IMG/VR virus record: IMGVR_UViG_2548876964_000024
Location: 1-27,437 of that record
Strand: one strand, 5' to 3'
DNA length: 27,437 bases
Source of the DNA: a virus
Lineage: Duplodnaviria > Heunggongvirae > Uroviricota > Caudoviricetes
Position numbers and translations under genes: made by a program. Below, piece after piece: positions 14 through 25,102 of this stretch; position 1 is the first letter of the stretch, and each line of letters opens with the position of its first letter. The notes under the pieces were generated by a model. That model was given only the letters and a program-made list of their open reading frames with translations, was not told where the DNA came from and made no database searches.

Positions 14-89
14 TGGTGCCGATTAACGGGATCGAACCGCTGACCATTCGCTTACAAAGCGACTGCTCTACCAACTGAGCTAAATCGGC
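14..89 (-). tRNA. tRNA-Thr (anticodon UGU), CCA encoded
   Basis: Reverse complement folds as cloverleaf: 7-bp acceptor stem GCCGATT/AATCGGC, T-loop TTCGATC, anticodon loop TTTGTAA (U33, anticodon TGT), 3' discriminator A + CCA. Differs from E. coli chromosomal Thr tRNAs as I recall them. Confidence 0.75.
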
Positions 90-93
90 AATG

Positions 94-180
94 TGGTGGG
101 GAGTGATGGAGTCGAACCACCCGAGTCGCAATGACAGTAGATTTACAGTCTACCCCGCTACCCCTACGGACTAACTCCCC
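94..180 (-). tRNA. tRNA-Tyr (anticodon GUA), type II with long variable arm, CCA encoded
   Basis: Reverse complement: acceptor stem GGGGAGT/ACTCCCC, anticodon stem GTAGA/TCTAC with loop CTGTAAA (anticodon GTA), long variable arm, T-loop TTCGACT, 3' ACCA. Confidence 0.7.
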
Positions 181-185
181 TAAAG

Positions 186-260
186 TGGCGATGGTGGGTG
201 GATTCGAACTACCGACCAGTTGGTTAACAGCCAACTGCTCTACCGCTGAGCTACACCATC
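186..260 (-). tRNA. tRNA-Asn (anticodon GUU), CCA encoded
   Basis: Reverse complement: acceptor stem GATGGTG/CACCATC, D-arm GCTCAGCGGTAGAGC, anticodon stem GTTGG/CCAAC with loop CTGTTAA (anticodon GTT), T-loop TTCGAAT, 3' GCCA. Confidence 0.8.
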
Positions 261-925: not shown

Positions 926-942
926 AAATTTATTAGAGCAAT
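926..942 (-). promoter_or_regulatory. C1 repressor operator-like site (17/17 match to ATTGCTCTAATAAATTT on minus strand)
   Basis: Plus strand reads AAATTTATTAGAGCAAT, the exact reverse complement of the P1 C1 operator consensus as I recall it. Overlaps the dmt stop codon and lies upstream of the minus-strand tRNA cluster. Confidence 0.6.
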
Positions 943-3900
943 ATACCCAAAACGTCATGAGCTACACCTCGAGTGTCCCCCTTACAAGACACAGAACGTC
1001 TGGCAAAAAGAGGTTCCACTCTGAAGCCACTGTCATGATAAAGCTCTCTGATGTTTGGCGCGCCACTGTTAGTAATGAGAACCTTTGCACCTCGACGATG
1101 AGCATCCGTCAACAGAGACACCAGGCGTTTTTGCTCTTCAAACTTAAAGTCATGACCGGAATAGTTCGTGAATCCCTCTGTATTTGGAAGCGGTTCATAC
1201 GGCGGATCGCAAAAGATTACATCTCCTTCTCCGGCAGCTTCAATCACCGCTGCAAAATCACCGCATACAAACTCAGACCGCCCTTCCGCACCGAGGAAGG
1301 CTTCCATCTCCTGTAATGGGAAATACGGAGTTTTATACTTCCCATAACCGACATTGAACTCACCGGCCTGGTTGTAACGCGTCAATCCGTTAAAACAATG
1401 TCGGTTCAGGAACAAAAACGCCGCTGCGCGATGTAAATCATCATAGACTTGTTTGTTAAACGCATTCCGTACTGCCAGGTATCCTTCCTGTGTGTTGTAG
1501 TCCTGGAAGAAACGATGTGCCAGAGTGATAAGTGAATGCGCCTCGCGTTGCAGAGTCTTGTAAAAGTTAATCAGGTCAGCATTCACATCATTTAGCAGAT
1601 TTTCCTGGTATCCGGCATTCATGAAGACAGCTCCGCCACCAACGAAAGGTTCAATCAGGCGCTTCCCTTCTGGCAAATAGCGAAAGATTTGTTCCAGAAC
1701 ACCAAATTTTCCACCAGCCCATTTGAATATGGACCGTTCGAATTCTGCCGCTGGTTTAACTTTTCGCTCTTTTGTTTCACTTCCTTCTTTCTGCCGACAT
1801 ACGGCCTTAGTAATCCGATCGCCAATCCAGCGCATTACTGGTATTGCCATACTATTGCCGATCGCTTTGTAACGCGGTCCGTCAGCTGCAAGCATCGCGG
1901 CCTCTTCTTCGCTTAAATCTGGATAGTGATTGCGAAGGTATGCCAGTTCATCTGAAGAAACTTTTTTACGCTTTTCCGTCGGGATCAACGTATGCCCCTC
2001 AGGAAAACCTTGCAGCCTTTCACATTCGACAGGGGTAAGACGGCGGACAGCTACTTCTGCGTTTCTTACTTCATAGCAAACAGCTGTTGGATTTTTAGCC
2101 ATTAGAGATGGTGAAGTATTCTTAGTTGCAGCATGTTGTGTACCGCTCATACGCTCAGGAAAAGCCAATGTAACAAGATGCTCATGGCTTTCTTGCTCAC
2201 GTGCCCGCAATGTACCATGCCCTTCTGACCAAAAACCTGCTCCTGTGCTGCTAAAAACGGCAAGGTCAGTGGCATCTTTAAAATCTCTTGCCTTTACTGT
2301 CGATGCGGTTTCATCGTCAATATATTCCCCAAATGCTGCCATCCTGAAAGCGTTTACGGCTTTCGTCGATTTCATACCGGGTGGCATGTCAGCGTGTAGG
2401 CATGGATTTAGGCTTTCGCCACTGATTGCAGCGCCATTTGCAATAATGGCGGAAGCGATTTCCTTCTTTTTTCGGCTCGGCGCAATATTCCGGCGCACGC
2501 CTTCGAACTCAAAAAGTACCGTTGCGGGATCGAGATCTGTTCGAGCACTTGCGACAACAAACACGCGTCGGCGTCGTTGTGCCACTCCGAAGTATTGGGC
2601 ATCAAGGATTCTCCAGGCCACTTTTCGCTGCGGTCCATAAATACAACCACACTGCGGCCACTTTGGAACATGGCAACCGGTTTTGCCATCCCACCGCCAG
2701 AACGCGTTGCTTTTTCCTGATTCAGGTCGATCACCTGGTTCAAATGGCACATCTTCTCCAGCCAATCCGGCAAGGAAACATCCGAAGGCGTTATCTGCCG
2801 ATGACAAGACTCCTGGGACATTTTCCCAGACGATAACGGCTGGTTTGAGAAATGACTCAGCCCGTTTGTCGTCAATTGCATTTGCAAGCTCCACATACTT
2901 TAAAGTTAGCGCGCCACGCTCATCATCAAGCCCACCACGTAATCCCGCGATACTGAATGCCTGACAGTTATGGACCACCGCACCATTGAGGATATAGGAA
3001 TGATCACCTTCGACTTCTATGTTGTATACAGTATCTAGGCCTACCGATTTAAACTCTTTGACTGTTCGTAAAAGCATTCCATGAGCCAATCTTGATTTAC
3101 GTGACAATTTCTGCGGGCAGATTGTTACCTGATAATAATTCCGTTGATTTACCACGCGATCCTCGATCACTTTTTTGGGCTCAACTTCAATAAAGCTGAC
3201 CGAAGAAACATAACCACAAGTCTGTGACAACCCCGCAACGCCCCAAGCAAGCGCAGAACTAACACTATTAATTCTAAATCCCGCTTTACCACTTGGTGTC
3301 CCATCAGTATCAAGATAGCCTTGTAAAAACACATGACGCAATGGATGCGACATCACCCATGCAGGGATACGCTTAGCATGGCTTAACTCGCCAAAATGTT
3401 CATTAAGCCAATTGGCATAACACGTATCATTCAAGGTTACTTTGATGCTCCCTCGGATTTCGCTTGCCACGGAAAATATGTTTTCTGGTATGCGGCAATG
3501 AAACTTTCTCAATTTCTGGCAATTTATGCCAAAAACAACCGCCTTCTTAGATTTACCTCTCCATCTCCTAATATATCCATCGCCAACATAAGCGCCCGCA
3601 AGATACATAGCCTGTTCTTCAGACAAGAACCGAGAACAAATATCTGGAAATGCAATATTGAAATTAGTTAGAGCGCACCATTGATATCCCGGCATATCAC
3701 ATGCTGCTCGCCATTCCGGTTCAGACAACAACTCTCTCTTAAAATATGTGCCATTTTTCCGGGTGTTTTGGGCTTTCCACCGAACAGCCAGGAAGGGATG
3801 GTCATTGGTTGTTCTTATACCTAAAGGCTGCCCAACGGCATTAAGTAACCCCGTATTAGCTATTTTTGAACCAACTCTTTTTACTTGTTGTAACCGCCCG

Positions 3901-4220
3901 AGATGACTGACTACGTAATCACCAGGGCAAACATTTTCTATTGGTTTATAGCCATTTTTACAAAGAACCATATGCCCCGCGGTAAAACATGGTGTTCCCC
4001 CGACGAGCACGTCAGGGGATTCGATTTCCCCAGCCAAGACTTTTTTGGCAAGTTTTTTCATGTCGCCAAGGTTGGCAACATGGGGCCAGCGGAGCGCAAG
4101 AACGGCCGATGGAAAAGGCTCGATTTCAGCAAACCACGCCGGACGCATACCCAACGGTTCCCAGGCAATACTCGCGGCTTCAATTCCACTGCAAACAGAT
4201 CCATAGCACAGCTCTTTCAC
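933..4220 (-). CDS. dmt: Bifunctional DNA methyltransferase Dmt-like: N-terminal C5-cytosine MTase domain (interrupted by an intein) fused to C-terminal Dam-type N6-adenine MTase domain; 1095 aa, GTG start
   Basis: C5-MTase motifs: motif [12 protein letters not shown], Pro-Cys motif GGTP/C-QAFS split by the intein, ENV motif [16 protein letters not shown], motif [12 protein letters not shown]-terminal Dam motifs: [41 protein letters not shown] start overlaps the upstream gene stop (GTGA); SD-like GGAGAGG upstream. Confidence 0.85.
2967..3989 (-). mobile_element. Intein (341 aa; Hint splicing domain + LAGLIDADG homing endonuclease) inserted in the C5-MTase Pro-Cys motif of dmt
   Basis: In-frame insert begins Cys (CFTAGHMVL, block A), has block [11 protein letters not shown] (T-x-x-H), two LAGLIDADG motifs ([12 protein letters not shown] and [11 protein letters not shown]), blocks [23 protein letters not shown], and is followed by +1 Cys of CQAFS. 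Excision restores GGTPCQAFS and leaves a 754-aa protein. Confidence 0.8.
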
Positions 4221-5122
4221 TGCTTAGCCTCTCCGCCAAGGGCATTTACCAGAGCATCAACCAGGCACGAAATTTCACTGGTCAACAGGAAGAAATCTGC
4301 GTCCAGTCGCTGCGCAACATCTTCACTATCAATATCAGAGTTCTGCTCAAGCAATTCATCCGCAAATTTGACGCTGGTAAGGCTGAAGTTATGGTCCAGT
4401 GTAAATTTAATGCGGTTCTGCCAGTCGAGTGCCAACTTAGTGACGAGCTTGCCAGCTTCCAGGTGTGTGGAAATTTCATCGCTTCCCAAATCCTGCTTTT
4501 TCACTCGGGCAATACCGCCATCCTCAAGCACTGCCTTAAGTTCTGCCGCATCCCCCATTTGAAATCCCTGTGGAGCACTACCATCACGTACCCAGTCGGT
4601 CAGCGTTAATTCAATGGGATTTTCAACACTCAGGGGAACAGCAGGAAGAGAACCCAGAGACTTACGCATAAGCGCGAGCATATCCTCTGCCTGCCGCGCG
4701 CTGGCATTGATATAGATACGTTTAGTTGAACCGTCGTAGATCGCCTGGATAACAGAAAACTTTGAAAAAGCCCGTGGCAGAAGAGAATGCAGAACTTCGT
4801 CTTTCAGGGAGTCCTTCTCTGTTTTCTTCAGTTTACGCGCTTGTTCTTGCTCAAGTTTTTCAATTTTTTCTTGAATAGCTCGCTGGATAACCGGCGGGGG
4901 AAGAATTTTTGTTTCGCGCTTTGCTTCAACAAGGATAAAACCATTTCCATGCATAGCGATAACTTCAGAATTATCACCAAATGGCGATACAAAACCGAAC
5001 TTGGCCATATCCTGACTACCGCATGGCGTGAAAAGGATCATTTTCTTTTTATCTTCTAAGTCGGTCAGATCCGCCTCACGAGAAAGTTTATAAATAGTAA
5101 TGTTTTTCCAGTGCTTAAACAT
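4217..5122 (-). CDS. hrdC: RdgC-family recombination-associated protein (P1 HrdC-like), 301 aa
   Basis: Full-length similarity to RdgC as recalled ([56 protein letters not shown]). Start chosen at internal ATG ([13 protein letters not shown]) matching the RdgC N-terminus; 8-nt overlap with upstream ORF. Confidence 0.8.
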
Positions 5123-5462
5123 GTTGTAACCCTTGAATATCAACCACAGAAAGCTCGTCTTTGTAGAAAAAGGCCAGGTTGTGGCACCCCCTCGTTTGAG
5201 CGTATGAGCTGGGACCAATTTCGTTCTTCCAGACAAATGGCTTCAAATCCGTACGGCGAAGCATAAAAACGCGATTTATTCCGCTCTGATTCCCAATGAG
5301 GCAAAAGCCTTCTTTCACCTTGATAGCCTGCAAGTTGTCGAGTTCACCGCTGGTTACACGGCTATCGAACTCTTTGCGGCTTATTAGCTCCATCTGCATC
5401 TGACGACTCCAAACAAATGCCCATTGAAGGGCGATGGCTGAATGGTACCGAAAATACGACAT
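5115..5462 (-). CDS. Hypothetical protein, first gene of the C1-controlled hrdC-dmt operon (possibly uhr-like), 115 aa
   Basis: ORF with ATG at 5462 immediately downstream of the C1 operator at 5471-5487; overlaps the hrdC start. No recognisable domain. Confidence 0.45.
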
Positions 5463-9192: not shown

Positions 9193-10002
9193 ATGCAAGA
9201 AGAGAAACAACACTACCTCTACGTTCTGGTGCCGGAGAATGGAGATACTTTTAAAATCGGCATTTCATGTGGTCCATTGGCACGGTTTAAAGGGCTACAA
9301 GTGAGTCCCGATTTTGCGCTTTCACGGGTCTATCGTGGTACGCGTTTGGCAATAGTTAATCTTGAGCGGGCTTTACACGCAACCTTTTTCCCCTGGAATG
9401 CGCCGTGGGAGAAAAGCGCCGGTGGCGGGCATACTGAATGGTTTACACGAGAGTGTCTTGATAAGGTTTTGGCTCATATCGAATATCTAAATGATATGTG
9501 GGGAGGGATTCTCGAGCGCATTAAGTCGAATGATTTACTTCAGCGTCCAGTAGATGCTGCTCGCTCTTTCGAAAAAGAGCTGGATGTTACTTCTATCGTG
9601 ACTTTCAAAGATGACGCAGGAATGAGGGACGTGGCTTATGTCTCCATATCTGGCTATGAACCGGACGCGATCCGCGCTCAATGTGAATTGCTGAAAGCAA
9701 TGTTTATGCTTCGGACTAAATATCCCTGGGAGACAAGGCGGGTGTGCTTCCCTATGGAAGAGTTAACCGCCACCATTGATTCCCAGCTTTACCACGATAA
9801 TCCAGAGAAGTTTTTTAGCCTTTTAGCCGGTAATGGGCTTAACTGTGTGTCCGGGCTGGGGCGAAGTAGAATCCAACATGCCTCGCTCTTCGGTCCCTTC
9901 TTTTACGATCGACACGGGTACTTTGAGGCTGAACTTCCGGCGCTTACGCGTGCTATAGATACTATCGATTTCGAACGATTATTCGCTGCTCTTAGCAAAT
10001 AA
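9193..10002 (+). CDS. Hypothetical protein with N-terminal T5orf172 / GIY-YIG-like motif (possibly upfA-like), 269 aa
   Basis: N-terminus HYLYVLVPENGDTFKIGIS...LARFKGL resembles the T5orf172/GIY-YIG-like fold; lies between repA iterons and the parA operator. Confidence 0.5.
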   Translation: MQEEKQHYLYVLVPENGDTFKIGISCGPLARFKGLQVSPDFALSRVYRGTRLAIVNLERALHATFFPWNAPWEKSAGGGHTEWFTRECLDKVLAHIEYLNDMWGGILERIKSNDLLQRPVDAARSFEKELDVTSIVTFKDDAGMRDVAYVSISGYEPDAIRAQCELLKAMFMLRTKYPWETRRVCFPMEELTATIDSQLYHDNPEKFFSLLAGNGLNCVSGLGRSRIQHASLFGPFFYDRHGYFEAELPALTRAIDTIDFERLFAALSK

Positions 10003-17949: not shown

Positions 17950-17973
17950 AAGCTCCTTCGGGAGCTTTTTTTA
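17950..17973 (+). terminator. Rho-independent terminator
   Basis: AAGCTCC-TTCG-GGAGCTT followed by TTTTTTT. Confidence 0.8.
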
Positions 17974-18064
17974 TAACTATTTTATATAAACATGCATCGA
18001 TAACATTGTCTGGAGTTTTATGTTAGATTATTAATGTTCTAATAAACTACAATTATTGAGGTAG

Positions 18065-18697
18065 ATGTTTGTGCCTGTACTGTTAAAGGGGGACTCTAAA
18101 ATGGCTGTGATTCCAATGTCGTACTCCCCGGGTACTGTCGCTCGTCGATTTTCGATCCTGGACGGAGTTACCATCCAGGGTGTGCTTTACCAGGTTATAT
18201 GGGATTCCAAAACCCCATTTGCAGCTGTAATAGAGGCTGCGCCTTCTGTTATCGATGGTGATATGCGGCATAAGGTTGTCGCTACTCTTGAACTTCAACG
18301 TCGCCCGCAGCTTGAAGGCGTACTGGTAAGGAAGTTCTGGGAGGATAGCGATGTTGCCCAGATTGAAGGTATCGTGGTTGATGGAACTGTCCGGGATGTC
18401 GGTTTAGCTACTTTTGTTTACGAAACCGTAGCCTCAAAAGCTGGTGTTGTTTTGCTCAGTGATAATGAGCAATACGAAGGTGGAAAAGCTCTTTGGCAAC
18501 ATATCGCCCGTCGCTCTTCCGAGCTAAAAGTGTTTATCCTCGACACCGATGCCGCTCAGTATTACCCGTTTGACGGCGAACGTGTTTGCTATGACGGGGT
18601 AAGTATTCCTGAATCCGAGATATGGAGTGAACACCCAGATCGAAGTAAGCATGGGGTTGTTCTGGTCGCTGAATCCATAATTGGAAATGCGGCATAG
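18065..18697 (+). CDS. Hypothetical protein (possibly pmgF-like), 210 aa (alternative start at 18101)
   Basis: ORF after the terminator; candidate weak C1-operator-like site (13/17) at 18033-18049 upstream. Confidence 0.45.
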   Translation: MFVPVLLKGDSKMAVIPMSYSPGTVARRFSILDGVTIQGVLYQVIWDSKTPFAAVIEAAPSVIDGDMRHKVVATLELQRRPQLEGVLVRKFWEDSDVAQIEGIVVDGTVRDVGLATFVYETVASKAGVVLLSDNEQYEGGKALWQHIARRSSELKVFILDTDAAQYYPFDGERVCYDGVSIPESEIWSEHPDRSKHGVVLVAESIIGNAA

Positions 18698-18879
18698 CAG
18701 TAAAAAATTCCTTGCTCCTTAAAATGGGAGAGGGTTAATCTACGTATGCTAAGCATAGATATGGCCTCAGATTAATGTTAAGCGTCTTGCAGGACGCGTA
18801 ATGTTATCTGGGGCTTTCTTCTATCTGCTTTTCGGGTAATGCCTGAAGCAGATAGCCTCAAGCACCCGCAACGATTGTA

Positions 18880-19125
18880 TCAATGTCTGGCTTTTTTTCT
18901 ATAGAAATCACCAGGAAGGGTGAATATCCACATCAGAAGAAATGTTGCAGCAAACATGATCCCTAATGGCCAGACCGCGCCAAAGAAAATCCATACTAAG
19001 ATCTCCTCTGCTCGTTCTTTGCGGTCGATATCGACAAGCATTTTTCGGCTGATCATGTATACACAGAAGCCAATACAAACATATCCTGCAAAAGCGATCG
19101 CTAACTGTAAAAAATCAGATTGCAT
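18880..19125 (-). CDS. Small membrane protein downstream of repL (two predicted TM helices), 81 aa
   Basis: ATG at 19125 with GAGG SD; hydrophobic segments AIAFAGYVCIGFCVYMI and ILVWIFFGAVWPLGIMFAATFLLMWIF. Confidence 0.4.
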   Translation of the reverse strand: MQSDFLQLAIAFAGYVCIGFCVYMISRKMLVDIDRKERAEEILVWIFFGAVWPLGIMFAATFLLMWIFTLPGDFYRKKARH

Positions 19126-19175
19126 CTCCGACCTCAAACTGAAAACGCCTGGTGACTCCAGATTAGAGCAATCTA

Positions 19176-20021
19176 TCACCCTCTGAATCCTGCCGGTATA
19201 CCCCATTGTTCGTTATCTTTATTTTTGGCTAAAACCGCATTAAGAGCTTCGTTTACCGTCATGCAATGCGGCAGATTATCGAAGTTTGATACCCCGCCAA
19301 TATCAGGAGAACGCTTGTTCTTCAGGTAAGCATATTTCCGCGCTGCCGCCTCTACTTTCTGCTTGAACTCATGTTTTTGAGCGCGTTTTTTGGATAACCG
19401 CAGATTGTCAGCCTTTGCTTTTGCCTCAGCGATCCATGAAGTCAATTTTTTGAGTTTGGTCGTTCCGGCAGCGCCGGAAACTGATCTTTTTGTTTTTTTA
19501 AATTGTGACTTCTTATTCTTTATTGCCACGTCATCCTGACAGGGGGAGGGGGTATCATTTTGACATGGGGGTGTGGATAAAAAATTAAATAAAGCCAATG
19601 TCTTAGCGAGAACAGCTTTAACCTTGGTTGCCGCTGAAGAGATCTTTAATTTGCTTTCAATCAGCGCATTTTTGGCTTGTTGTGCGAAGGCCAAAAAGGA
19701 TGGTGTAAACCGGTACAGGTTAGCGCGACGTTCACGGTGATCGCCGATAACAATCTCTACAGACAGAATTCCTTTGTTTACAGCTTCACGGAATGCACGA
19801 ACGACGGTTGATTGGCTATAACCAGTTTCTGCCGCGATCAGGCGGTGAGGCTTGTGAATGAAGTATTCACTGGTTGTTGCCGCTAGATTTGCACATTGCG
19901 ACAGGATATGCCCGGCGCTACGGGATAGACCGGAGTGTGTTACAAAGCAGGCCAATTCATAGCCAGAAAAAGTAAAATCGCTCATCGTTATACAGCTCAG
20001 GAAAGTGACTTTAGCCAGCAT
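19176..20021 (-). CDS. repL: Lytic replication initiator RepL, 281 aa
   Basis: Position immediately downstream of kilA and sequence features of RepL family (HTH-like region TGYSQSTVVRAFREAVNKGIL; basic Lys-rich C-terminal half). Confidence 0.7.
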   Translation of the reverse strand: MLAKVTFLSCITMSDFTFSGYELACFVTHSGLSRSAGHILSQCANLAATTSEYFIHKPHRLIAAETGYSQSTVVRAFREAVNKGILSVEIVIGDHRERRANLYRFTPSFLAFAQQAKNALIESKLKISSAATKVKAVLAKTLALFNFLSTPPCQNDTPSPCQDDVAIKNKKSQFKKTKRSVSGAAGTTKLKKLTSWIAEAKAKADNLRLSKKRAQKHEFKQKVEAAARKYAYLKNKRSPDIGGVSNFDNLPHCMTVNEALNAVLAKNKDNEQWGIPAGFRG

Positions 20022-20050
20022 TACAATGCTGGTGGTTCTTACTACGTCTG

Positions 20051-20851
20051 TTAGCGCGCTGCCGCGACAGGTACCAGCACACCAGCATCAAGCAATCGCT
20101 TCATCAGCCACTGCTGACCTTTGCCGGTTATACGAGTCGTGAAAGAAATCCTGCTTCCATTGCTTGTATCGATCACGGTTTCTTTAAGGGTGAAATACCC
20201 ACGGGATATGTATTCTTGTTTGGGGACGTTCCTGCGTTCACCGGTTGCGATCAGAATTCCGTTATCACGCAACCAGGTGAAGAGATAGTTTTGGCCCAGG
20301 CCGAGCACTTTGGCATAGTTGCCGATTAGAACCCCGCTGGCGGTAGCAACGCGTTCGGCGAATTCGACTTTAGGTGCATCCATAAGCATTTTTTGCTCCA
20401 GCCGTTGCTTTTGCTCTGCCAGGTCGGCAGCCAAACGGAGAGCTTCAGGGAGACTCTGCGGAATAGCAGGTTGTAATCTTCCGGCTCGATAGTCGATAAA
20501 TGTCTGGTTTACCTTCAGCCGAAACGCGGGAGAAATCCAGCCTGCGTACTCCACAGCGAGCAATTCATGGGCAAAAGTGCCGCCGCCACGGCCTTCGAAC
20601 GAAACTATGCAATTCTGCATAGTTTCTTTTTCAAGCTCTTCGATGAGCTGTTTGGCTGACAGCGTTCTTAGCCATTGAGCTGGCGCTTTATGGGCACCGA
20701 GTCCGCTCGCTCTGTGTAGAGCATTAAGGTTGTAACGGCCAGCGTGGTCGGTCGTAATTTCAACACCACAAATAACAGGCAGAGTGGTTGAAGGATCGAC
20801 ATTTTGATGAAGGTTTGATATATTCATATCCGCATTGAATGTTTGTTGCAT
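20051..20851 (-). CDS. kilA: KilA (KilA-N domain plus antirepressor-type C-terminal domain), 266 aa
   Basis: N-terminal KilA-N-like region; C-terminal ~130 aa closely similar to the C-terminus of the adjacent ant product (IPQSLPEALRLAADLAEQK... vs IPQTLPEALRLAAELAEQK...). Confidence 0.7.
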   Translation of the reverse strand: MQQTFNADMNISNLHQNVDPSTTLPVICGVEITTDHAGRYNLNALHRASGLGAHKAPAQWLRTLSAKQLIEELEKETMQNCIVSFEGRGGGTFAHELLAVEYAGWISPAFRLKVNQTFIDYRAGRLQPAIPQSLPEALRLAADLAEQKQRLEQKMLMDAPKVEFAERVATASGVLIGNYAKVLGLGQNYLFTWLRDNGILIATGERRNVPKQEYISRGYFTLKETVIDTSNGSRISFTTRITGKGQQWLMKRLLDAGVLVPVAAAR

Positions 20852-20920
20852 TTTTTCTCCAAATTTGCATCAACCTTCAATCACCAGCTCGAAATGGTGA
20901 TTCTTTGCACTTAGAAAACG

Positions 20921-20937
20921 AAATTTATTAGAGCAAA
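20921..20937 (-). promoter_or_regulatory. C1 operator-like site (16/17), Op53-type, at the kilA-repL promoter
   Basis: Plus strand AAATTTATTAGAGCAAA, 70 nt upstream of the kilA start on the minus strand. Confidence 0.6.
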
Positions 20938-20982
20938 TTTTTCTAACTCGATCCAGATCGGGTTGGATGATCTGCTCAGAAA

Positions 20983-21008
20983 CCTGCCAGTTTGCTGGCA
21001 GGTTTTTT
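20983..21008 (+). terminator. Rho-independent terminator, plus-strand orientation
   Basis: CCTGCCAG-TTTG-CTGGCAGG followed by TTTTTT; lies between ant stop and the kilA promoter. Confidence 0.6.
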
Positions 21009-21014
21009 CTTTTG

Positions 21015-22403
21015 TTAACCTATTGCTACTGGTTTTAACAAACCAGCATCAAGTAGCTTGCGAGTTAACCACTGCTGGCCTTTACCCGTTAATTGGGGCG
21101 TCAGCCGTATCTGGTAGCCATTTTCATCATCCAGCACCACTTCTTTCACCGTGAAATACCCGGCGTTGATGTACTGTTGGCGCGGTACGTTTTTGCGCGC
21201 TCCAAAAGCCATGAGAATGCCATTCTGGCGCAACCATGAGAAAAGGGCGTTTTGCTTAAGTCCAACGACCTTTGCAAAGTTCCCGATCAGGATTCCATTA
21301 GCCACTGATACCCGGTCGGCAAAATCGACTTTAGGGGCTGCGGCCACCAGCTGTTGTTCCAACTGCATTTTCTGTTCTGCCAACTCGGCGGCCAGGCGCA
21401 AGGCTTCTGGTAATGTTTGGGGGATTGTGACCGGTTGCTGTTCTTTTTGCCGGAAGTAGCTGTCTTCCAGTTTTTCAAAGAATGCCCACGCTTGCTCTGT
21501 GTCTACGATCTTAGACATGCGTGCCGCTCCGCGTTCGGTCCAGAGTATTAAGGATCTGGTCTTGGGGGAAATTTGCAACTCGCTAAAAGATAGTCGCAAA
21601 CTTTTTATCTCATCTCCTTTGATTTTAAAGAAGTGTTTACCCTCTACAAATCGTTCTTCGTTGCGATTGTAGTTCTGCTGAATACGAATAGGTGTAGTGT
21701 CATACCCTCTAGCAAGAGTCTCGGTTGTCACGACGCGTACTCCCTGCCATTCCAGAACGGGAATTTCATCAGGCTGATTTTCAACATTTATAGGTTCCAA
21801 TGCCTGAATCATGGTTTGTAGCGAACGGCGGACCGCTTTTGACTCGCGCGCGGCAACTCGCAGGGCTTGTTTGTAGGTCATGGTTATGACAACCATAGGC
21901 GTACCGCCACCTGGTGGCACGGTTGCACTTTTTGTGTAACCGTCCTCACCTTCTAATTCGTCGAGTATTTTTTCGATGAATTTGTTGTTCCGAACCGCTG
22001 GTTCCCCACATAACTTACGCGCTTCATTGACCATCTTTAACAGTGTCTGGCTGTCGATTGTGTCTCCAGTGTTGGAGATAACATTCACAGCTGGTGATGG
22101 CGTAGCTGAAGCAACAGGTGCTGGTTTTTCAACATTCAAATTATTACCGGTCATTCTATGTGCCTCCTTTCTCATTTCTGCTGCCACTGTTGCGTAACGT
22201 AGACGTCCTTGTTCAATCAAATAATCCCTGATCTCGGCTATCAGTAGCCTGTTGATCACAGCCTTATCTGTTCGGGTATAAAAACGCCTGGTTATCATGA
22301 AATAGTTGGCAATTGCGCCGGGGATCTCCCGTGTCGGCATACAGGTTGTATGCAAAGCGAACGCTTCGGCAATTTCATTACGGGTGACGAGAGGTTTTTT
22401 CAT
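21015..22403 (-). CDS. ant: Antirepressor Ant (immI) with C-terminal KilA-C-type antirepressor domain, 462 aa
   Basis: Start ATG overlaps icd stop (ATGA); C-terminal domain paralogous to KilA C-terminus; synteny c4-icd-ant-kilA-repL. Confidence 0.65.
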   Translation of the reverse strand: MKKPLVTRNEIAEAFALHTTCMPTREIPGAIANYFMITRRFYTRTDKAVINRLLIAEIRDYLIEQGRLRYATVAAEMRKEAHRMTGNNLNVEKPAPVASATPSPAVNVISNTGDTIDSQTLLKMVNEARKLCGEPAVRNNKFIEKILDELEGEDGYTKSATVPPGGGTPMVVITMTYKQALRVAARESKAVRRSLQTMIQALEPINVENQPDEIPVLEWQGVRVVTTETLARGYDTTPIRIQQNYNRNEERFVEGKHFFKIKGDEIKSLRLSFSELQISPKTRSLILWTERGAARMSKIVDTEQAWAFFEKLEDSYFRQKEQQPVTIPQTLPEALRLAAELAEQKMQLEQQLVAAAPKVDFADRVSVANGILIGNFAKVVGLKQNALFSWLRQNGILMAFGARKNVPRQQYINAGYFTVKEVVLDDENGYQIRLTPQLTGKGQQWLTRKLLDAGLLKPVAIG

Positions 22404-22621
22404 AAAACCCCCTGAACGTCGGCAGAGAAGGGGAGGTTCCAGTAACTAAGTGAATTGCGCGAGTTAGTAGAAAAACGGGCAGTAAAAATGCAGGGGCCAT
22501 CAGGCAATTGAGAGCGTGCTTCGTCTTCAGTTGCTGCGATAACGAAGTGATAGTGTTGTTTTTGGCAGGAGTAAAAGCGCCAGATAAATTCAGGATGAGT
22601 AGGGGTAGGGATAGTAGCCAC
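22400..22621 (-). CDS. icd: Icd-like cell-division interference protein, 73 aa, GTG start, translationally coupled to ant
   Basis: 73-aa ORF matching the length of P1 Icd (recollection); SD AAGGAGG 7 nt upstream of GTG; stop overlaps ant ATG. Confidence 0.55.
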   Translation of the reverse strand: MATIPTPTHPEFIWRFYSCQKQHYHFVIAATEDEARSQLPDGPCIFTARFSTNSRNSLSYWNLPFSADVQGVL

Positions 22622-22639
22622 AATGGCAGCCTCCTTTTG

Positions 22640-22800
22640 CTAATTTAAGGAGCTACCGCGTGAGGTTCCAATCTCAATGGCGGTAGCACTGACTGGGTTG
22701 GAACTACCGGCGCAAAAGGGAACCGGCCTGCCTTTCGGCAGCCCAGCCAGCACTACCATTGATCTCGGAGCTATGTGCTACGTATGGCTGTGCGATGGCA
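22640..22800 (-). ncRNA. c4: Candidate c4-type antisense repressor RNA region (immI), exact ends not determined
   Basis: GC-rich structured, non-coding leader upstream of icd on the minus strand, downstream of an Op51-like operator; direct repeat TAGCTCC occurs near the icd RBS and about 115 nt upstream (as a1/b1 versus a'/b' target-type elements would). Confidence 0.3.
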
Positions 22801-22807
22801 TGACACA

Positions 22808-22832
22808 AAAAAAGACGCTTTTGGCGTCTGTG
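22808..22832 (-). terminator. Rho-independent terminator on minus strand inside immI leader
   Basis: Minus-sense AGACGC-CAAAA-GCGTCT followed by TTTTTTT. Confidence 0.6.
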
Positions 22833-22955
22833 TCGCCTTTTGCATTATCCGGGGTTCCAATCCCGGCATCCGTTTTACTAAGATGCCTGTTTAGGATAAA
22901 CCGAAAATGCATTAGCACGCAAGCAAGTTAATGTAGCATATGAAGCTAAAAAAAT

Positions 22956-22972
22956 AAAATAATTAGAGCAAC
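22956..22972 (-). promoter_or_regulatory. C1 operator-like site (14/17), Op51-type, at immI promoter
   Basis: Minus-sense GTTGCTCTAATTATTTT versus consensus ATTGCTCTAATAAATTT. Confidence 0.4.
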
Positions 22973-23021
22973 TTGCAACCATGTGAATTATTTCTCTGGT
23001 AACTAAAATGTATGAGTTTAA

Positions 23022-23047
23022 TTGATATGGGTCAAAGATTTTGACCA
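23022..23047. promoter_or_regulatory. Overlapping palindromes upstream of cargo gene A (putative operator)
   Basis: GGTCAAA-GAT-TTTGACC (23022-23038) overlapping ACCAT-TGC-ATGGT (23035-23047), about 75 nt upstream of the 23119 start. Confidence 0.35.
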
Positions 23048-23118
23048 TTGCATGGTGAAACTTTATGCTACAAAATGTTATTTTAAGGCGTTTTATCTGT
23101 GGCAGGAGATAGTTAATC

Positions 23119-23469
23119 ATGTCATCTGAACATGTTCGTAAAGGTGTAACAAATGCGAAATTCAATGAAGAGCAATCTAATATTCTCTTTATTGAAATAG
23201 GAATTCTGTCAATACTGATAGGTTTAATGTCTAAATCATGGTGGGCCTTTGGCGGTTCTTTTCTTGGACTGATTTTTAGTTTAAGAATAAAATTTCTGGC
23301 AATACCATTGATGATTGTATTTAGCTTAGTATGGGGAGCTATTGGCTATAGTATTGGTACTTTGTTTGAATCAACAGCAGCAAGTATTGTTTTGGGGGTA
23401 ATTGCTTTCCTGAGTGGTTTGGGTACTCATTTTGCTGCCGTGCAATGGGCAAATGATATTGCAGAATAA
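23119..23469 (+). CDS. Small polytopic inner-membrane protein (cargo gene A), 116 aa
   Basis: ATG after GGCAGGAGATAG; three to four hydrophobic helices; AT-rich codon usage distinct from flanking phage genes. Confidence 0.55.
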   Translation: MSSEHVRKGVTNAKFNEEQSNILFIEIGILSILIGLMSKSWWAFGGSFLGLIFSLRIKFLAIPLMIVFSLVWGAIGYSIGTLFESTAASIVLGVIAFLSGLGTHFAAVQWANDIAE

Positions 23470-23491
23470 TTACAGATAAGAAGCGAAAAGA

Positions 23492-23968
23492 ATGAATATG
23501 AGATGGTTTTTATTATTTGTATCGTTAGTTTCAGCAGGAACATTTGCAAAAATAGATCCTCTACAATGGAATGTAATTGAAGAGAGAGGGGGGAGAGAAT
23601 ATACAATCCATAATCATAATGGTGATAAGATAAGTTTTTTATGTGATATGGGATTCATGTATGGTTCACCAGATAGTGCAGGTAGTTTAGGCTTGTTGCT
23701 AAGTTCGTCGAATAATAAAAAAGAGTATAATGCTGACAAGAATAAAATAGTATTAACTATAGATGGTGAGCAATATCCTTTTAGCAATCTTGGATCAATG
23801 GTTGGAGATTCTTGGTGGTATGCCTTTTGGCAAGATGCAGCAGATTCAAATGCTAATGCGATCGATGCTTATGTTGATAATGAAAAAATTGCCACATTTC
23901 CTCTTTCTGGGCTAAGTAAATTATATCAACAAGCTAAAAACGATGGATGCTTAAAGCGCGGCGATTAA
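23492..23968 (+). CDS. Secreted/periplasmic protein with Sec signal peptide (cargo gene B), 158 aa
   Basis: N-terminal MNMRWFLLFVSLVSAGTFA signal peptide (A-x-A-type cleavage site likely after TFA); AT-rich. Confidence 0.55.
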   Translation: MNMRWFLLFVSLVSAGTFAKIDPLQWNVIEERGGREYTIHNHNGDKISFLCDMGFMYGSPDSAGSLGLLLSSSNNKKEYNADKNKIVLTIDGEQYPFSNLGSMVGDSWWYAFWQDAADSNANAIDAYVDNEKIATFPLSGLSKLYQQAKNDGCLKRGD

Positions 23969-23987
23969 TTTTATTGCAAATTTAACG

Positions 23988-24012
23988 TAACCCATAAAGC
24001 GATTATGGGTTA
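23988..24012. terminator. 10-bp stem-loop between convergent cargo genes (putative bidirectional terminator, no clear U-tract)
   Basis: TAACCCATAA-AGCGA-TTATGGGTTA. Confidence 0.35.
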
Positions 24013-24019
24013 CAAAATA

Positions 24020-24913
24020 TTAAGATGTTGTGTTATAACAGTCTGTTTCTTCAAAGCAATGGGTCAGGTTATTGATCACAGGTTCTCCTTTCTCGTGTCT
24101 GAGAATAAGAGAGCCTCCATTAGTAGACCATTTATCTGAAACAGCAACAAAATTACAGAAGCAGCTACTCCCTGAAATTTCTCTTGCAATTCTTATAAAA
24201 TGAAATGCTCTAACTTCGAGACCTGGAACAATTTGTCCAAGACATTCTCTCATTGAATCTTCATCAAAGTCTCCATTTATTATTCCTGAACAGATAAACT
24301 CATAATAATTAAGAACGAAGAACATATCATTACCTGCTGATATGTATTTATCATGGACCTTTTTATCTTTTAAATCTTTATCATTTGGGATAAGTCTTTG
24401 TTTGGCAATAATTTCATTTATGGTTTTTCTAAGCCCGAACGTATTCGCTACCGATGAGACTTTTTTGTGAAATAATTCACTGTTTCTTTGATTCATTAGT
24501 GTATTTAAGGTGTGTGATTTTCTTGCGGCTACTTTACTCACAGTAGCCTGAACCCACCACCCAGAACCAAGTAGCACAGAACTTATAAGTAAAGCAATTG
24601 TGGATTGGTATACATCACCATATAAATAATATAATATAAATACACTATATAGCGTTACACCAAAGATTAAAGCTATAATGGTAATCCCATCGTTTGTTTC
24701 TGGGTATTTTTTTGCTATCTTTTCCTTTATCGTTATGCTGATAAAGGCGGAGAAGAACGCAAACATTAAGAATGGTAAAACTTCATCGAGAGAAAAAGAT
24801 AATGTTTTCTTGATAATATCTTCTCGAGATTCAAATATCATGAAAAAAAGTAATGAGAGAAAAAAAGTTAAGTGAGTATATTTATGTTTTATGTATTTCT
24901 GTAAAGAATGCAT
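24020..24913 (-). CDS. Membrane-anchored protein: N-terminal 3-4 TM helices plus about 160-aa cytoplasmic domain of unknown function (cargo gene C), 297 aa
   Basis: Long AT-rich ORF convergent with genes A/B; hydrophobic N-terminal third; no recognisable catalytic motif. Confidence 0.55.
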   Translation of the reverse strand: MHSLQKYIKHKYTHLTFFLSLLFFMIFESREDIIKKTLSFSLDEVLPFLMFAFFSAFISITIKEKIAKKYPETNDGITIIALIFGVTLYSVFILYYLYGDVYQSTIALLISSVLLGSGWWVQATVSKVAARKSHTLNTLMNQRNSELFHKKVSSVANTFGLRKTINEIIAKQRLIPNDKDLKDKKVHDKYISAGNDMFFVLNYYEFICSGIINGDFDEDSMRECLGQIVPGLEVRAFHFIRIAREISGSSCFCNFVAVSDKWSTNGGSLILRHEKGEPVINNLTHCFEETDCYNTTS

Positions 24914-24923
24914 TTTAAATCCT

Positions 24924-24960
24924 AAAAAAATACGCCCATTAAAGGGCGTTTTATTGTTTT
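24924..24960. terminator. Bidirectional terminator-like hairpin (A7 - ACGCCC-ATTAAA-GGGCGT - T-rich) at edge of cargo module
   Basis: Stem 24932-24937 / 24944-24949 flanked by A-run upstream and TTTTATTGTTTT downstream; 19 nt from the gene C start codon. Confidence 0.5.
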
Positions 24961-24990
24961 ACTCAAAACAACCTGACTCAAAACAACCTG
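24961..24990 (+). repeat. Perfect 15-bp tandem duplication ACTCAAAACAACCTG x2
   Basis: Identical adjacent copies at 24961-24975 and 24976-24990. Confidence 0.9.
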
Positions 24991-25102
24991 ATTGTGTGAT
25001 AACCATATGATACTCCTCATTCCATCTACACTACCTACTCTAACTTAATGATACCATATTACTCCCGGACGGCAATATTCCCACTCAATGGACAAATGAC
25101 TA

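What the first reader, a model, noticed from the sequence alone, without database searches (positions are those of the whole stretch)
2967..3989. Canonical intein with LAGLIDADG homing endonuclease inserted at the catalytic Pro-Cys motif of the phage Dmt C5-cytosine methyltransferase
The 1095-aa minus-strand ORF is continuous, but its C5-MTase motif IV is split: GGTP, then a 341-aa insert, then CQAFS. The insert starts with Cys (block [10 protein letters not shown]), has block [11 protein letters not shown], two LAGLIDADG motifs ([23 protein letters not shown]) and ends with blocks F/G ...[14 protein letters not shown] immediately before the +1 Cys. That +1 Cys is the catalytic nucleophile of the methyltransferase, so splicing chemistry and MTase catalysis would share the same residue. 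Removing the insert yields a 754-aa C5 + Dam fusion, close to the size I recall for P1 Dmt (about 750 aa). I am not aware of a described intein in a DNA methyltransferase of a P1-like phage-plasmid. It implies post-translational control of a methyltransferase and an active homing element in this lineage.
Basis: partly seen in the sequence, partly recalled or inferred. Interest (0 to 1): 0.85.

Follow-up and report, generated by a model that had tools for sequence, protein, structure and literature searches.

The report
Intein splitting phage P1-type Dmt methyltransferase
The DNA methyltransferase gene (dmt) of this P1-like phage-plasmid is interrupted, exactly at the enzyme's catalytic cysteine, by a real self-splicing intein that carries a homing endonuclease; it is a sound but fairly ordinary find, because it belongs to a large intein family that targets this same site in cytosine methyltransferases.

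Summary
The minus-strand ORF 933..4220 (1095 aa) is P1 Dmt (98.4% identical to reference P1 Dmt) plus a 341-aa in-frame insert (window 2967..3989). The insert lies between Pro and Cys of the C5-methyltransferase motif IV (GGTP|C…HN|CQAFS). It has Cys1, TxxH, His-Asn and a +1 Cys, and two LAGLIDADG motifs with both catalytic Asp. An AlphaFold model (pLDDT 90.9) best matches PI-SceI, TliVMA, PI-PfuI and PI-PkoII inteins. In PLSDB, 129 P1-like plasmids carry it and 363 have the uninterrupted junction. It is present in 152 of 5426 complete E. coli genomes, always full length.

It occurs in several dmt backgrounds and diverges less than its flanks. It is perfectly linked to a synonymous CCA (versus CCT) Pro codon at the junction. 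At least about 135 protein clusters (50% identity) from many phyla and viral contigs have related inteins at the same P|C…N|CQ site.

C-5 methylase inteins are already listed in an actinophage survey; I found no paper on the P1-family one. Splicing, endonuclease activity and any regulatory role are inferred, not shown. Verdict: real, new member of a known kind, moderate interest.

The parts
933..4220 (-). dmt precursor ORF (1095 aa, about 121.7 kDa, GTG start overlapping the end of hrdC/rdgC; stop 933-935)
   Evidence: annotated dmt in near-identical phage records
3990..4220 (-). N-extein: Dmt residues 1-77, C5-methyltransferase motifs I to the Pro of motif IV (…LVGGTP)
2967..3989 (-). Intein, 341 aa (about 38.3 kDa, pI 9.4), class 1, with LAGLIDADG endonuclease domain
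3951..3989 (-). Splicing block [14 protein letters not shown]; Cys1 (TGT 3987-3989) is the first nucleophile
   Evidence: conserved in homologues
3792..3821 (-). Splicing block [11 protein letters not shown], with TxxH (T61, H64)
3570..3605 (-). First LAGLIDADG motif [12 protein letters not shown] (catalytic Asp137)
   Evidence: D137/G138 at least 90% conserved
3297..3329 (-). Second LAGLIDADG motif [11 protein letters not shown] (catalytic Asp229)
   Evidence: Pfam LAGLIDADG_3 covers precursor 298-361
3180..3632 (-). Approximate extent of the endonuclease domain (intein aa about 120-270; alpha/beta core in the model)
   Evidence: secondary structure of the model; Foldseek matches to I-DmoI and I-SceI. 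Boundaries are approximate.
2967..3032 (-). Splicing blocks F and [16 protein letters not shown] / NGAVVHN; penultimate His340, terminal Asn341; block F position 4 is Asn323 (invariant in the family)
   Evidence: TIGR01443; alignment to Spl DnaX mini-intein C-terminus
2964..2966 (-). +1 Cys codon (TGT): second splicing nucleophile and, after splicing, the catalytic Cys of motif IV (PCQ)
   Evidence: aligns with the PCQ Cys of M.HhaI and M.HaeIII
936..2966 (-). C-extein: rest of the C5 module (motifs IV-X plus the target-recognition region), linker and Dam module
948..1739 (-). Dam-type N6-adenine methyltransferase module (precursor aa about 828-1091), not interrupted
   Evidence: Pfam MethyltransfD12 191.9 bits, TIGR00571 248.8 bits

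Best explanation
The 1023-bp insert is a bona fide class-1 intein with an embedded double-motif LAGLIDADG homing endonuclease, and it has invaded the dmt gene of a P1-like phage-plasmid.

Inferred mechanism. The gene is translated as a 122-kDa precursor in which motif IV of the C5-cytosine methyltransferase module is split (GGTP / CQAFS). The standard four-step splicing reaction then follows: an N-S acyl shift at Cys1; trans-thioesterification onto the +1 Cys; cyclisation of Asn341 assisted by His340; and an S-N shift. This releases a 38-kDa intein and an 83-kDa Dmt with PCQ restored. The +1 Cys therefore serves first as a splicing nucleophile and afterwards as the methyltransferase's catalytic nucleophile. 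The C-terminal Dam module is not interrupted and may work even in the precursor.

At the DNA level, the free or embedded endonuclease is expected to cut intein-less dmt alleles at the motif-IV coding sequence when two P1-like elements meet in one cell. Repair would then copy the intein in (homing).

Shown here: anatomy, fold, exact insertion point, presence/absence polymorphism and family membership. Inferred: splicing, DNA cleavage and homing.
For: Anatomy and insertion point:
- There is a clean 341-aa gap against reference P1 Dmt, with 98.4% identity in the exteins.
- The splicing residues C1, T61xxH64, H340-N341 and C+1 are all present. They are conserved across homologues down to 28% identity.
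- Both LAGLIDADG Asp residues are present.

HMM and fold evidence:
- Pfam LAGLIDADG_3 and NCBIfam intein_Cterm score above their cut-offs.
- The AlphaFold2 model has pLDDT 90.9 and pTM 0.88. Foldseek top hits are PI-SceI (E 4e-18), TliVMA, PI-PfuI and PI-PkoII, followed by I-DmoI and I-SceI.
- The in-silico spliced protein regains a contiguous C5-MTase match (profile 5-119, 123 against 102.5 bits). Its junction aligns with the PCQ of M.HhaI and M.HaeIII.

Mobility signature:
- 129 intein-positive against 363 uninterrupted plasmids in PLSDB.
- 152 of 5426 complete E. coli genomes carry it; every copy is full length and at least 98.7% identical.
- All 32 translated copies are intact.
- It is found with both long and short target-recognition variants of dmt and with two N-extein haplotypes.
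- The intein is 1.5% diverged where the N-extein is 5.6% diverged.
- dN/dS is 0.19-0.43.
- GC is lower than in the host gene.
- Linkage to a synonymous flank change is complete. All intein-positive alleles read CCA (6 + 26 loci, 85 exact 39-mers). Intein-less junctions read CCT (158 + 200 records), and none with CCA was found.

Wider family:
- About 135 of the 150 best 50%-identity clusters have P|C…N|CQ.
- This includes a Dmt-like C5+Dam fusion at 56% intein identity and a mini-intein at the same site.
Against: - No experiment shows splicing or cleavage.
- Pfam Hint_2 is just below its gathering score in this copy (28.1 against 28.4), and Intein_splicing is far below (17.7 against 35.8).
- Block F position 4 is Asn, not the usual Asp.
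- The -1 residue is Pro. Pro is among the slow -1 residues for N-terminal cleavage in one tested intein (PMC11842431). From my own knowledge it blocks cleavage in some engineered inteins. Splicing could therefore be slow or conditional.
- dN/dS rests on only 5-15 substitutions per pair.
- The strict CCA/CCT linkage is equally compatible with a single old invasion spread by ordinary recombination.
Confidence: 0.9

Rival explanations
1. The intein still splices but its endonuclease is no longer active. The element would then persist and spread only by vertical descent and ordinary homologous recombination among P1-like plasmids, not by homing.
For: All intein-less alleles differ from intein-positive ones at the base next to the insertion point (CCT against CCA). 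Present-day empty sites might therefore not be substrates. Intein copies differ by no more than 1.5%, compatible with one recent origin. Some family members have lost an endonuclease Asp (P0009) or the whole domain (P0019).
Against: Both catalytic Asp residues and the whole domain are intact in all 32 translated copies, with no frameshift or deletion, and all 153 places in E. coli genomes are full-length ungapped matches. The intein sits in at least two N-extein haplotypes and both TRD types. It is less diverged than its N-extein flank. Co-conversion during homing would itself produce the CCA linkage.
Confidence: 0.3
2. The insert is a decayed or non-splicing Hint-type insertion that simply inactivates the C5 module. 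It would be tolerated because only the Dam module of Dmt matters to the phage.
For: P1 needs GATC methylation at pac (PMC12707154), while a C5 activity of Dmt is only 'perhaps' in the P1 annotation. The sequenced reference P1 itself carries a private G74W change in motif IV, suggesting the C5 module can be dispensable. Pro at -1 and Asn at block F position 4 are unusual. Decayed relatives exist: E. fergusonii lacks Cys1, and Mannheimia has a truncated C-extein.
Against: Every splicing residue is conserved in this copy and across a family reaching 28% identity. Pro-1 and Asn-F4 are family-wide, so they are adaptations rather than decay. All C5 motifs of the exteins remain intact at 98% identity to intein-less alleles. 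dN/dS is below 1.
Confidence: 0.07
3. The insert is an integral, domesticated domain of a longer Dmt variant (for example a DNA-binding or nuclease module acting within the methyltransferase) and is not excised.
For: LAGLIDADG folds have been domesticated elsewhere; WhiA appears among the fold matches. Public annotation treats the 1095-aa protein as a single methyltransferase.
Against: It splits the catalytic PCQ motif, which would leave the C5 module non-functional unless it is removed. Intein-less alleles are the majority. The terminal splicing residues would not be conserved in a domesticated domain.
Confidence: 0.02
4. Assembly chimera or sequencing artefact.
For: None.
Against: The identical structure is found in hundreds of independent complete plasmids, genomes and viral contigs.
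Confidence: 0.01

Closest known systems
Full-length class-1 inteins with LAGLIDADG endonuclease (PI-SceI / Sce VMA1, TliVMA, PI-PfuI, PI-PkoII)
   Same: Same two-domain architecture and fold (Foldseek E 4e-18 to 2.5e-09). Cys1, TxxH, His-Asn, a +1 Cys and two LAGLIDADG motifs are present. It is inserted at a conserved catalytic site of a nucleic-acid or nucleotide enzyme.
   Different: Sequence identity is only 11-17%. The host protein and insertion site differ. The -1 residue is Pro, and block F position 4 is Asn instead of Asp. At 341 aa it is smaller than PI-SceI (454 aa) and has no obvious extra DNA-recognition region.
Inteins of actinobacteriophage DNA methylases (DNMT-1/2 in N6/N4 methylases, PMC5050341 and PMC9957025; C-5 methylase listed in bioRxiv 10.1101/2025.01.02.630785)
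   Same: These are phage-borne LAGLIDADG inteins in DNA methyltransferase genes, with a patchy distribution and evidence of transfer between divergent host genes.
   Different: The described cases are in actinophages and mostly in N6/N4 enzymes. The text I read does not state the insertion site of the C-5 cases, so identity of site is untested. The present one is in an enterobacterial P1-type C5+Dam fusion.
The C5-methyltransferase motif-IV (P|CQ) intein family found here in metagenomes, genomes and viral contigs
   Same: Same insertion point, same termini (P|CF…HN|CQ) and 28-56% identity over the full length. Examples include P0022 (a C5+Dam fusion), a Mannheimia haemolytica prophage-like copy, and copies in Metarhizobium, Chloroflexota, Clostridia, Mesorhizobium and Neisseria.
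   Different: The P1-family copy forms its own tight cluster (at least 98% identity internally, no more than 56% to the next relatives). As far as I could find, the family has no published name or description.
Bacteriophage P1 Dmt (AF234172, 754 aa)
   Same: The exteins are orthologous: 742/754 identical, same gene order (hrdC-dmt-tRNAs), same C5+Dam fusion.
   Different: Reference P1 has no intein, reads CCT and not CCA before the Cys codon, and carries a private Gly-to-Trp change in motif IV.

Membership tests
Class-1 intein (Hint fold, canonical four-step splicing) | In-frame insertion absent from otherwise orthologous alleles, with exact restoration of the host motif on removal | tested here: met
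   341-aa clean gap against P1 Dmt. Removal gives GGTPCQAFS and 754 aa. There are 363 uninterrupted junctions in PLSDB.
Class-1 intein (Hint fold, canonical four-step splicing) | N-terminal nucleophile (Cys/Ser/Thr at position 1) and block B TxxH | tested here: met
   Cys1; T61-N-D-H64; conserved in homologues.
Class-1 intein (Hint fold, canonical four-step splicing) | C-terminal His-Asn followed by a +1 Cys/Ser/Thr | tested here: met
   …VVHN|C. TIGR01443 scores 28.8 bits against cut-off 15.6. 116 of about 150 relatives share P|C…HN|CQ.
Class-1 intein (Hint fold, canonical four-step splicing) | Block F with Asp at position 4 and His at position 13 | tested here: inconclusive
   By my hand alignment, the block F histidine is present (DHSY) but position 4 is Asn323, invariant in this family. 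Whether Asn substitutes functionally is unknown.
Class-1 intein (Hint fold, canonical four-step splicing) | Hint-domain profile match above curated threshold | tested here: inconclusive
   Hint_2 scores 28.1 bits against cut-off 28.4, and Intein_splicing 17.7 against 35.8, in this copy. Homologues at the same site score 33-48 bits on Hint_2.
Class-1 intein (Hint fold, canonical four-step splicing) | Hint beta-fold | tested here: met
   Model pLDDT 90.9. Best PDB matches are full-length inteins, plus Prp8 mini-inteins for the splicing part.
Class-1 intein (Hint fold, canonical four-step splicing) | Autocatalytic excision and extein ligation | not testable with these tools
   Needs expression, western blot or mass spectrometry.
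LAGLIDADG (dodecapeptide) homing endonuclease, single-chain double-motif type | Two LAGLIDADG motifs, each ending in a catalytic acidic residue | tested here: met
   LAGAYVGD137G and LQGYLDTD229G.
LAGLIDADG (dodecapeptide) homing endonuclease, single-chain double-motif type | Profile match and alpha-beta-beta-alpha-beta-beta-alpha fold | tested here: met
   PF14528 scores 29.9 bits against cut-off 22.5. Foldseek matches to I-DmoI, I-SceI and I-OnuI-type enzymes. PI-PkoII endonuclease region aligns in sequence.
LAGLIDADG (dodecapeptide) homing endonuclease, single-chain double-motif type | Site-specific cleavage of the intein-less allele and homing | not testable with these tools
   Only indirect evidence: patchy distribution, several host-gene backgrounds, lower divergence than flanks, and linked flank polymorphism.
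C5-cytosine DNA methyltransferase (host module) | Motif IV PCQ with catalytic Cys, plus ENV, QxRxR and GNS motifs | tested here: met
   In the spliced sequence: [23 protein letters not shown] and IGNSM. PF00145 scores 123 bits. The sequence aligns to the PCQ of M.HhaI and M.HaeIII. Enzymatic C5 activity of Dmt was not tested.
P1 Dmt orthologue (C5 + Dam fusion) | High identity over the full length and conserved neighbourhood (hrdC upstream, tRNA cluster and ban region downstream) | tested here: met
   98.4% identity over 754 aa. hrdC/rdgC is at window 4217-5236 and tRNAs at 14-260.

The most novel reading that the evidence does not exclude
The intein is more than a passenger. Because it splits only the C5 module and leaves the Dam module intact, and because its scissile bond follows a Pro (a slow -1 residue in a tested intein), splicing could be slow or conditional, for example dependent on redox state or DNA. 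That would delay or gate cytosine methylation relative to adenine methylation during P1-type infection or lysogeny. Independently, the whole P|C…N|CQ family would be a natural source of inteins adapted to a -1 proline.
Probability: 0.12. Interest if true: 0.65.

Novelty: new member of a known kind. Interest (0 to 1): 0.4.

Why it matters
P1 is a model phage and a workhorse of E. coli genetics, and P1-like phage-plasmids are common carriers of resistance genes. About a quarter of the P1-like plasmids in PLSDB encode a Dmt precursor that public annotation labels only as a 'Dam family methyltransferase'. Size, domain and activity predictions for these proteins are therefore off unless the intein is recognised.

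The copy gives a genetically tractable E. coli system for studying three things: intein homing between co-resident phage-plasmids; splicing with Pro at -1; and a shared splicing/catalytic cysteine.

The wider point is that motif IV of C5 methyltransferases is a heavily used intein insertion site across bacteria and phages. In the papers I could search, this is at most listed in surveys.

Tried and rejected
1. Sequence-only search of the PDB with the insert gave only weak hits (Spl DnaX C-terminus E 0.0015; PI-PkoII E 0.024). I relied on the predicted structure and fold search instead.

2. The Pfam Intein_splicing and Hint_2 scores of this copy are below threshold. I did not use them as proof.

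3. I first took the window to be phage vB_EcoM-Ro157c2YLVW because the dmt match printed as 100%. Direct comparison shows 1 mismatch in dmt and 99.6% identity over 18 kb, with rearrangements beyond. The window is a close relative, not that record.

4. I considered that the Trp in the P1 motif IV (VWGTPCQ) marks a homing-resistant allele class. Rejected: 199 natural P1-type plasmids have Gly there, so Trp is private to the sequenced P1 reference. The class-wide differences are synonymous (GGT ACG CCT or GGA ACA CCT, against GGA ACA CCA).

5. I looked for an intein-less junction carrying CCA, which would be a precise-loss or naive susceptible site. None was found in PLSDB.

6. Literature searches for an intein in P1 dmt, in P1-like elements or in C5 methyltransferases found no description of this element. 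The hits for 'C5-methyltransferase' concerned intein purification tags. The Novikova 2015 survey text mentions no methyltransferase.

7. More distant relatives (22-30% identity) sit in other host proteins (SPD|C…|CTHFS-type proteins, ribonucleotide reductase-like QLSA|C…|CFV). I excluded them from the same-site family.
Full report
**1. The observation**

The window has a continuous minus-strand ORF at 933..4220 (1095 aa, GTG start). Translating it and locating the quoted strings places the insert at precursor residues 78-418, which is window 2967..3989. These are exactly the coordinates given. The flanks read …LVGGTP | CFTAGHMVL … NGAVVHN | CQAFS…. The insert has 42.7% GC, against 49.1% for the rest of the ORF.

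**2. The host gene**

The ORF matches dmt of P1-like phages. It has one mismatch to Escherichia phage vB_EcoM-Ro157c2YLVW and is 99.1% identical to RCS47.

Reference P1 (AF234172) matches only outside the insert. In a protein alignment, the 754-aa P1 Dmt shows a single clean 341-residue gap between the P and the C of PCQ, and is 742/754 identical elsewhere.

Pfam and NCBIfam find an interrupted C5 methylase module and an intact C-terminal Dam module. When the insert is removed in silico, the N-terminal C5 match becomes contiguous (residues 8-135 on profile 5-119) and the score rises from 102.5 to 123 bits.

The restored junction aligns with GFPCQAFS of M.HhaI and GGPPCQSWS of M.HaeIII. By established knowledge of C5 methyltransferases, the Cys of this motif is the catalytic nucleophile (Cys81 in M.HhaI). 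The intein's +1 Cys is therefore that residue.

**3. The insert itself**

Sequence profiles:
- LAGLIDADG_3 scores 29.9 bits (cut-off 22.5).
- Hint_2 scores 28.1 bits (cut-off 28.4, just missed).
- Intein_splicing is weak.
- NCBIfam intein_Cterm scores 28.8 bits (cut-off 15.6), with weak partial matches to intein-containing RNR, GyrA, RFC, RtcB and DnaB models.
- Sequence search of the PDB gives only weak hits, to the C-terminus of the Spl DnaX mini-intein and the endonuclease part of PI-PkoII.

Structure: an AlphaFold2 model built on an alignment with 11 homologues is confident (mean pLDDT 90.9, pTM 0.88, no segment below 50). Its best PDB matches are full-length LAGLIDADG inteins: PI-SceI (E 4e-18), TliVMA, PI-PfuI, PhoVMA and PI-PkoII. 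Free-standing LAGLIDADG enzymes (I-DmoI, I-SceI) and Prp8 mini-inteins follow.

The splicing residues of a class-1 intein are all there: Cys1, T61xxH64, His340-Asn341 and Cys+1. Both LAGLIDADG motifs keep their catalytic Asp (D137, D229).

Two details deviate from the textbook consensus. Both are family-wide rather than signs of decay:
- The -1 residue is Pro.
- Block F position 4 is Asn (N323, invariant in the alignment).

**4. Population picture in P1-like elements**

Counts:
- In PLSDB, 129 plasmids carry the 1023-bp insert at 95% identity or more.
- A 200-nt probe across the empty junction finds 495 plasmids, 363 of them uninterrupted. About a quarter of P1-like plasmids are therefore intein-positive.
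- Among 5426 complete E. coli genomes, 152 carry it. There are 148 places on plasmids and 5 on chromosomes. Every match is full length and ungapped, and listed identities run from 98.7% to 100%.
- Thirty-two copies that I translated (6 + 26) are all 341 aa without stops.

Backgrounds: the intein occurs with the long target-recognition variant of dmt (3288 nt: this window, RCS47, E. albertii CP117656) and with a short one (3042 nt: OP279344, CP099884, CP149165). Both variants also exist without it (2265 and 2019 nt). It occurs on two N-extein haplotypes (GTC GGG GGA ACA CCA and GTG GGA GGG ACA CCA).

Divergence: between this window and the E. albertii allele, the intein differs at 15/1023 sites (1.5%) and the N-extein at 13/231 (5.6%). 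Pairwise dN/dS of the intein is 0.19-0.43, on few substitutions.

Junction polymorphism: the last Pro codon is CCA in every intein-positive allele examined (85 exact 39-mers). Empty junctions read CCT in 158 (GGA ACA CCT) plus about 200 (GGT ACG CCT) plasmids. An empty junction with CCA was not found.

These patterns are what a homing element with co-conversion would leave. They do not exclude a single invasion followed by recombination.

**5. The wider family**

A search with the insert alone finds relatives at 47-52% identity in other C5 methylases, at the same GGTP|C…HN|CQ position. It also finds 29-32% relatives, and a mini-intein of about 150 aa at the same site.

An exhaustive phmmer search of 1.84 billion cluster representatives gives 186 clusters at E ≤ 1e-30. 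Of the roughly 150 best, about 135 have Pro at -1, Cys at 1, Asn at the end and CQ after it. The closest outside the P1 cluster (56%) is again a C5+Dam fusion.

Species genomes with same-site copies include Metarhizobium, Mesorhizobium, Chloroflexota, Clostridia, Neisseria and a CPR bacterium. Many IMG/VR viral contigs carry them too. More distant relatives (22-30%) sit in other proteins and were not counted.

**6. Mechanism**

The best-supported account is the canonical one:
- Translation gives a 121.7-kDa precursor with a disabled C5 module.
- Class-1 splicing through Cys1 and Cys+1, with Asn341 cyclisation, releases an 83.4-kDa Dmt and a 38.3-kDa basic intein.
- At the DNA level, the LAGLIDADG domain cleaves the motif-IV coding sequence of empty alleles, followed by gene conversion.

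Shown: the architecture, fold, site and polymorphism. Inferred: the chemistry and the mobility.

The Dam module is downstream and uninterrupted. P1 depends on GATC methylation at pac (PMC12707154), so the phage's essential methylation may not depend on splicing at all. Pro at -1 was among the slow residues for N-terminal cleavage in one systematically tested intein (PMC11842431). Conservation of Pro in the whole family argues that these inteins cope with it, but slow or conditional splicing remains possible.

**7. Comparison with what is known**

Inteins in phage DNA methylases have been described for mycobacteriophage N6/N4 enzymes (PMC5050341; PMC9957025). A 2025 actinophage survey lists C-5 methylases (IPR001525) among the invaded proteins.

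I found no paper mentioning an intein in P1 dmt, in P1-like phage-plasmids, or at the PCQ motif. The library lacks most subscription journals, so absence is not proof.

Public records call the protein 'DNA methyltransferase' or 'Dam family … methyltransferase'. Some relatives carry automatic names such as 'Hint domain-containing protein' or 'DOD-type homing endonuclease domain-containing protein'. Insertion next to a catalytic nucleophile of a DNA-metabolism enzyme is the normal habit of inteins.

I therefore rate this a new member of a known kind.

**8. Verdict**

The claims of regulation and of ongoing homing are plausible but unproven, and the novelty is more modest than it supposed. Interest 0.4.

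Noticed in passing
L001 (AF234172 P1) codon 74 of dmt; corresponds to window 3999-4001: The sequenced reference P1 has TGG (Trp) in the conserved GGTPCQ motif IV. All intein-positive alleles and about 199 natural P1-type plasmids have GGG (Gly). This is a private G74W change of the laboratory P1 and could cripple its C5 module.
   Followed up: partly
window 9193-10002 (+): A 269-aa ORF annotated in relatives as GIY-YIG nuclease / T5orf172 lies between the parA and replication-gene homologues. It is present in 12 P1-like phage records, with no match reported in reference P1 or P7. It may be a second mobile nuclease gene with a patchy distribution.
   Followed up: partly
L009 (E. fergusonii pRHB38-C01_2, NZ_CP057105) 439-520: Next to an IS91 transposase, the N-extein and roughly the first 8 residues of the intein (including Cys1) are replaced by unrelated sequence. 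This copy cannot splice, yet it is annotated as a 1031-aa methyltransferase.
   Followed up: partly
L002 (OP279344, 'P1 isolate del res del mod'): A laboratory 'P1' record carries the intein and a shorter, unrelated target-recognition region in the C5 module (dmt 3042 nt). The dmt locus of this isolate therefore differs from the classical P1 reference.
   Followed up: partly
window about 1900-2500 (target-recognition region of the C5 module); L002, L007, L008, L010: Two alternative target-recognition cassettes (long and short, about 82 aa difference) circulate in P1-like dmt genes, independently of the intein. This implies different C5 specificities.
   Followed up: partly
P0010 (Mannheimia haemolytica, seen on 578 contigs): A 47%-identical intein is intact, but the C-extein ends 20 residues after the +1 Cys (CQSDKGG…). 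This is an apparently decayed methylase gene still carrying a complete intein.
   Followed up: no
P0019 and P0009 (metagenomic relatives): P0019 has a mini-intein of about 150 aa at the same P|C…HN|CQ site, lacking the endonuclease. P0009 has Asn for the penultimate His and Asn for the second LAGLIDADG Asp. These are stages expected in an intein's decay cycle.
   Followed up: no
window 14-260 (-): A cluster of three tRNA genes (Thr-TGT, Tyr-GTA, Asn-GTT) lies downstream of dmt. The Tyr gene is 87 nt.
   Followed up: no
window 17972-25091 against NC_050153: The window is 99.6% identical to phage Ro157c2YLVW over the first 18 kb. Beyond that it has insertions and rearranged or more divergent segments (93-99%), so it comes from a related but different P1-like element.
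   Followed up: no
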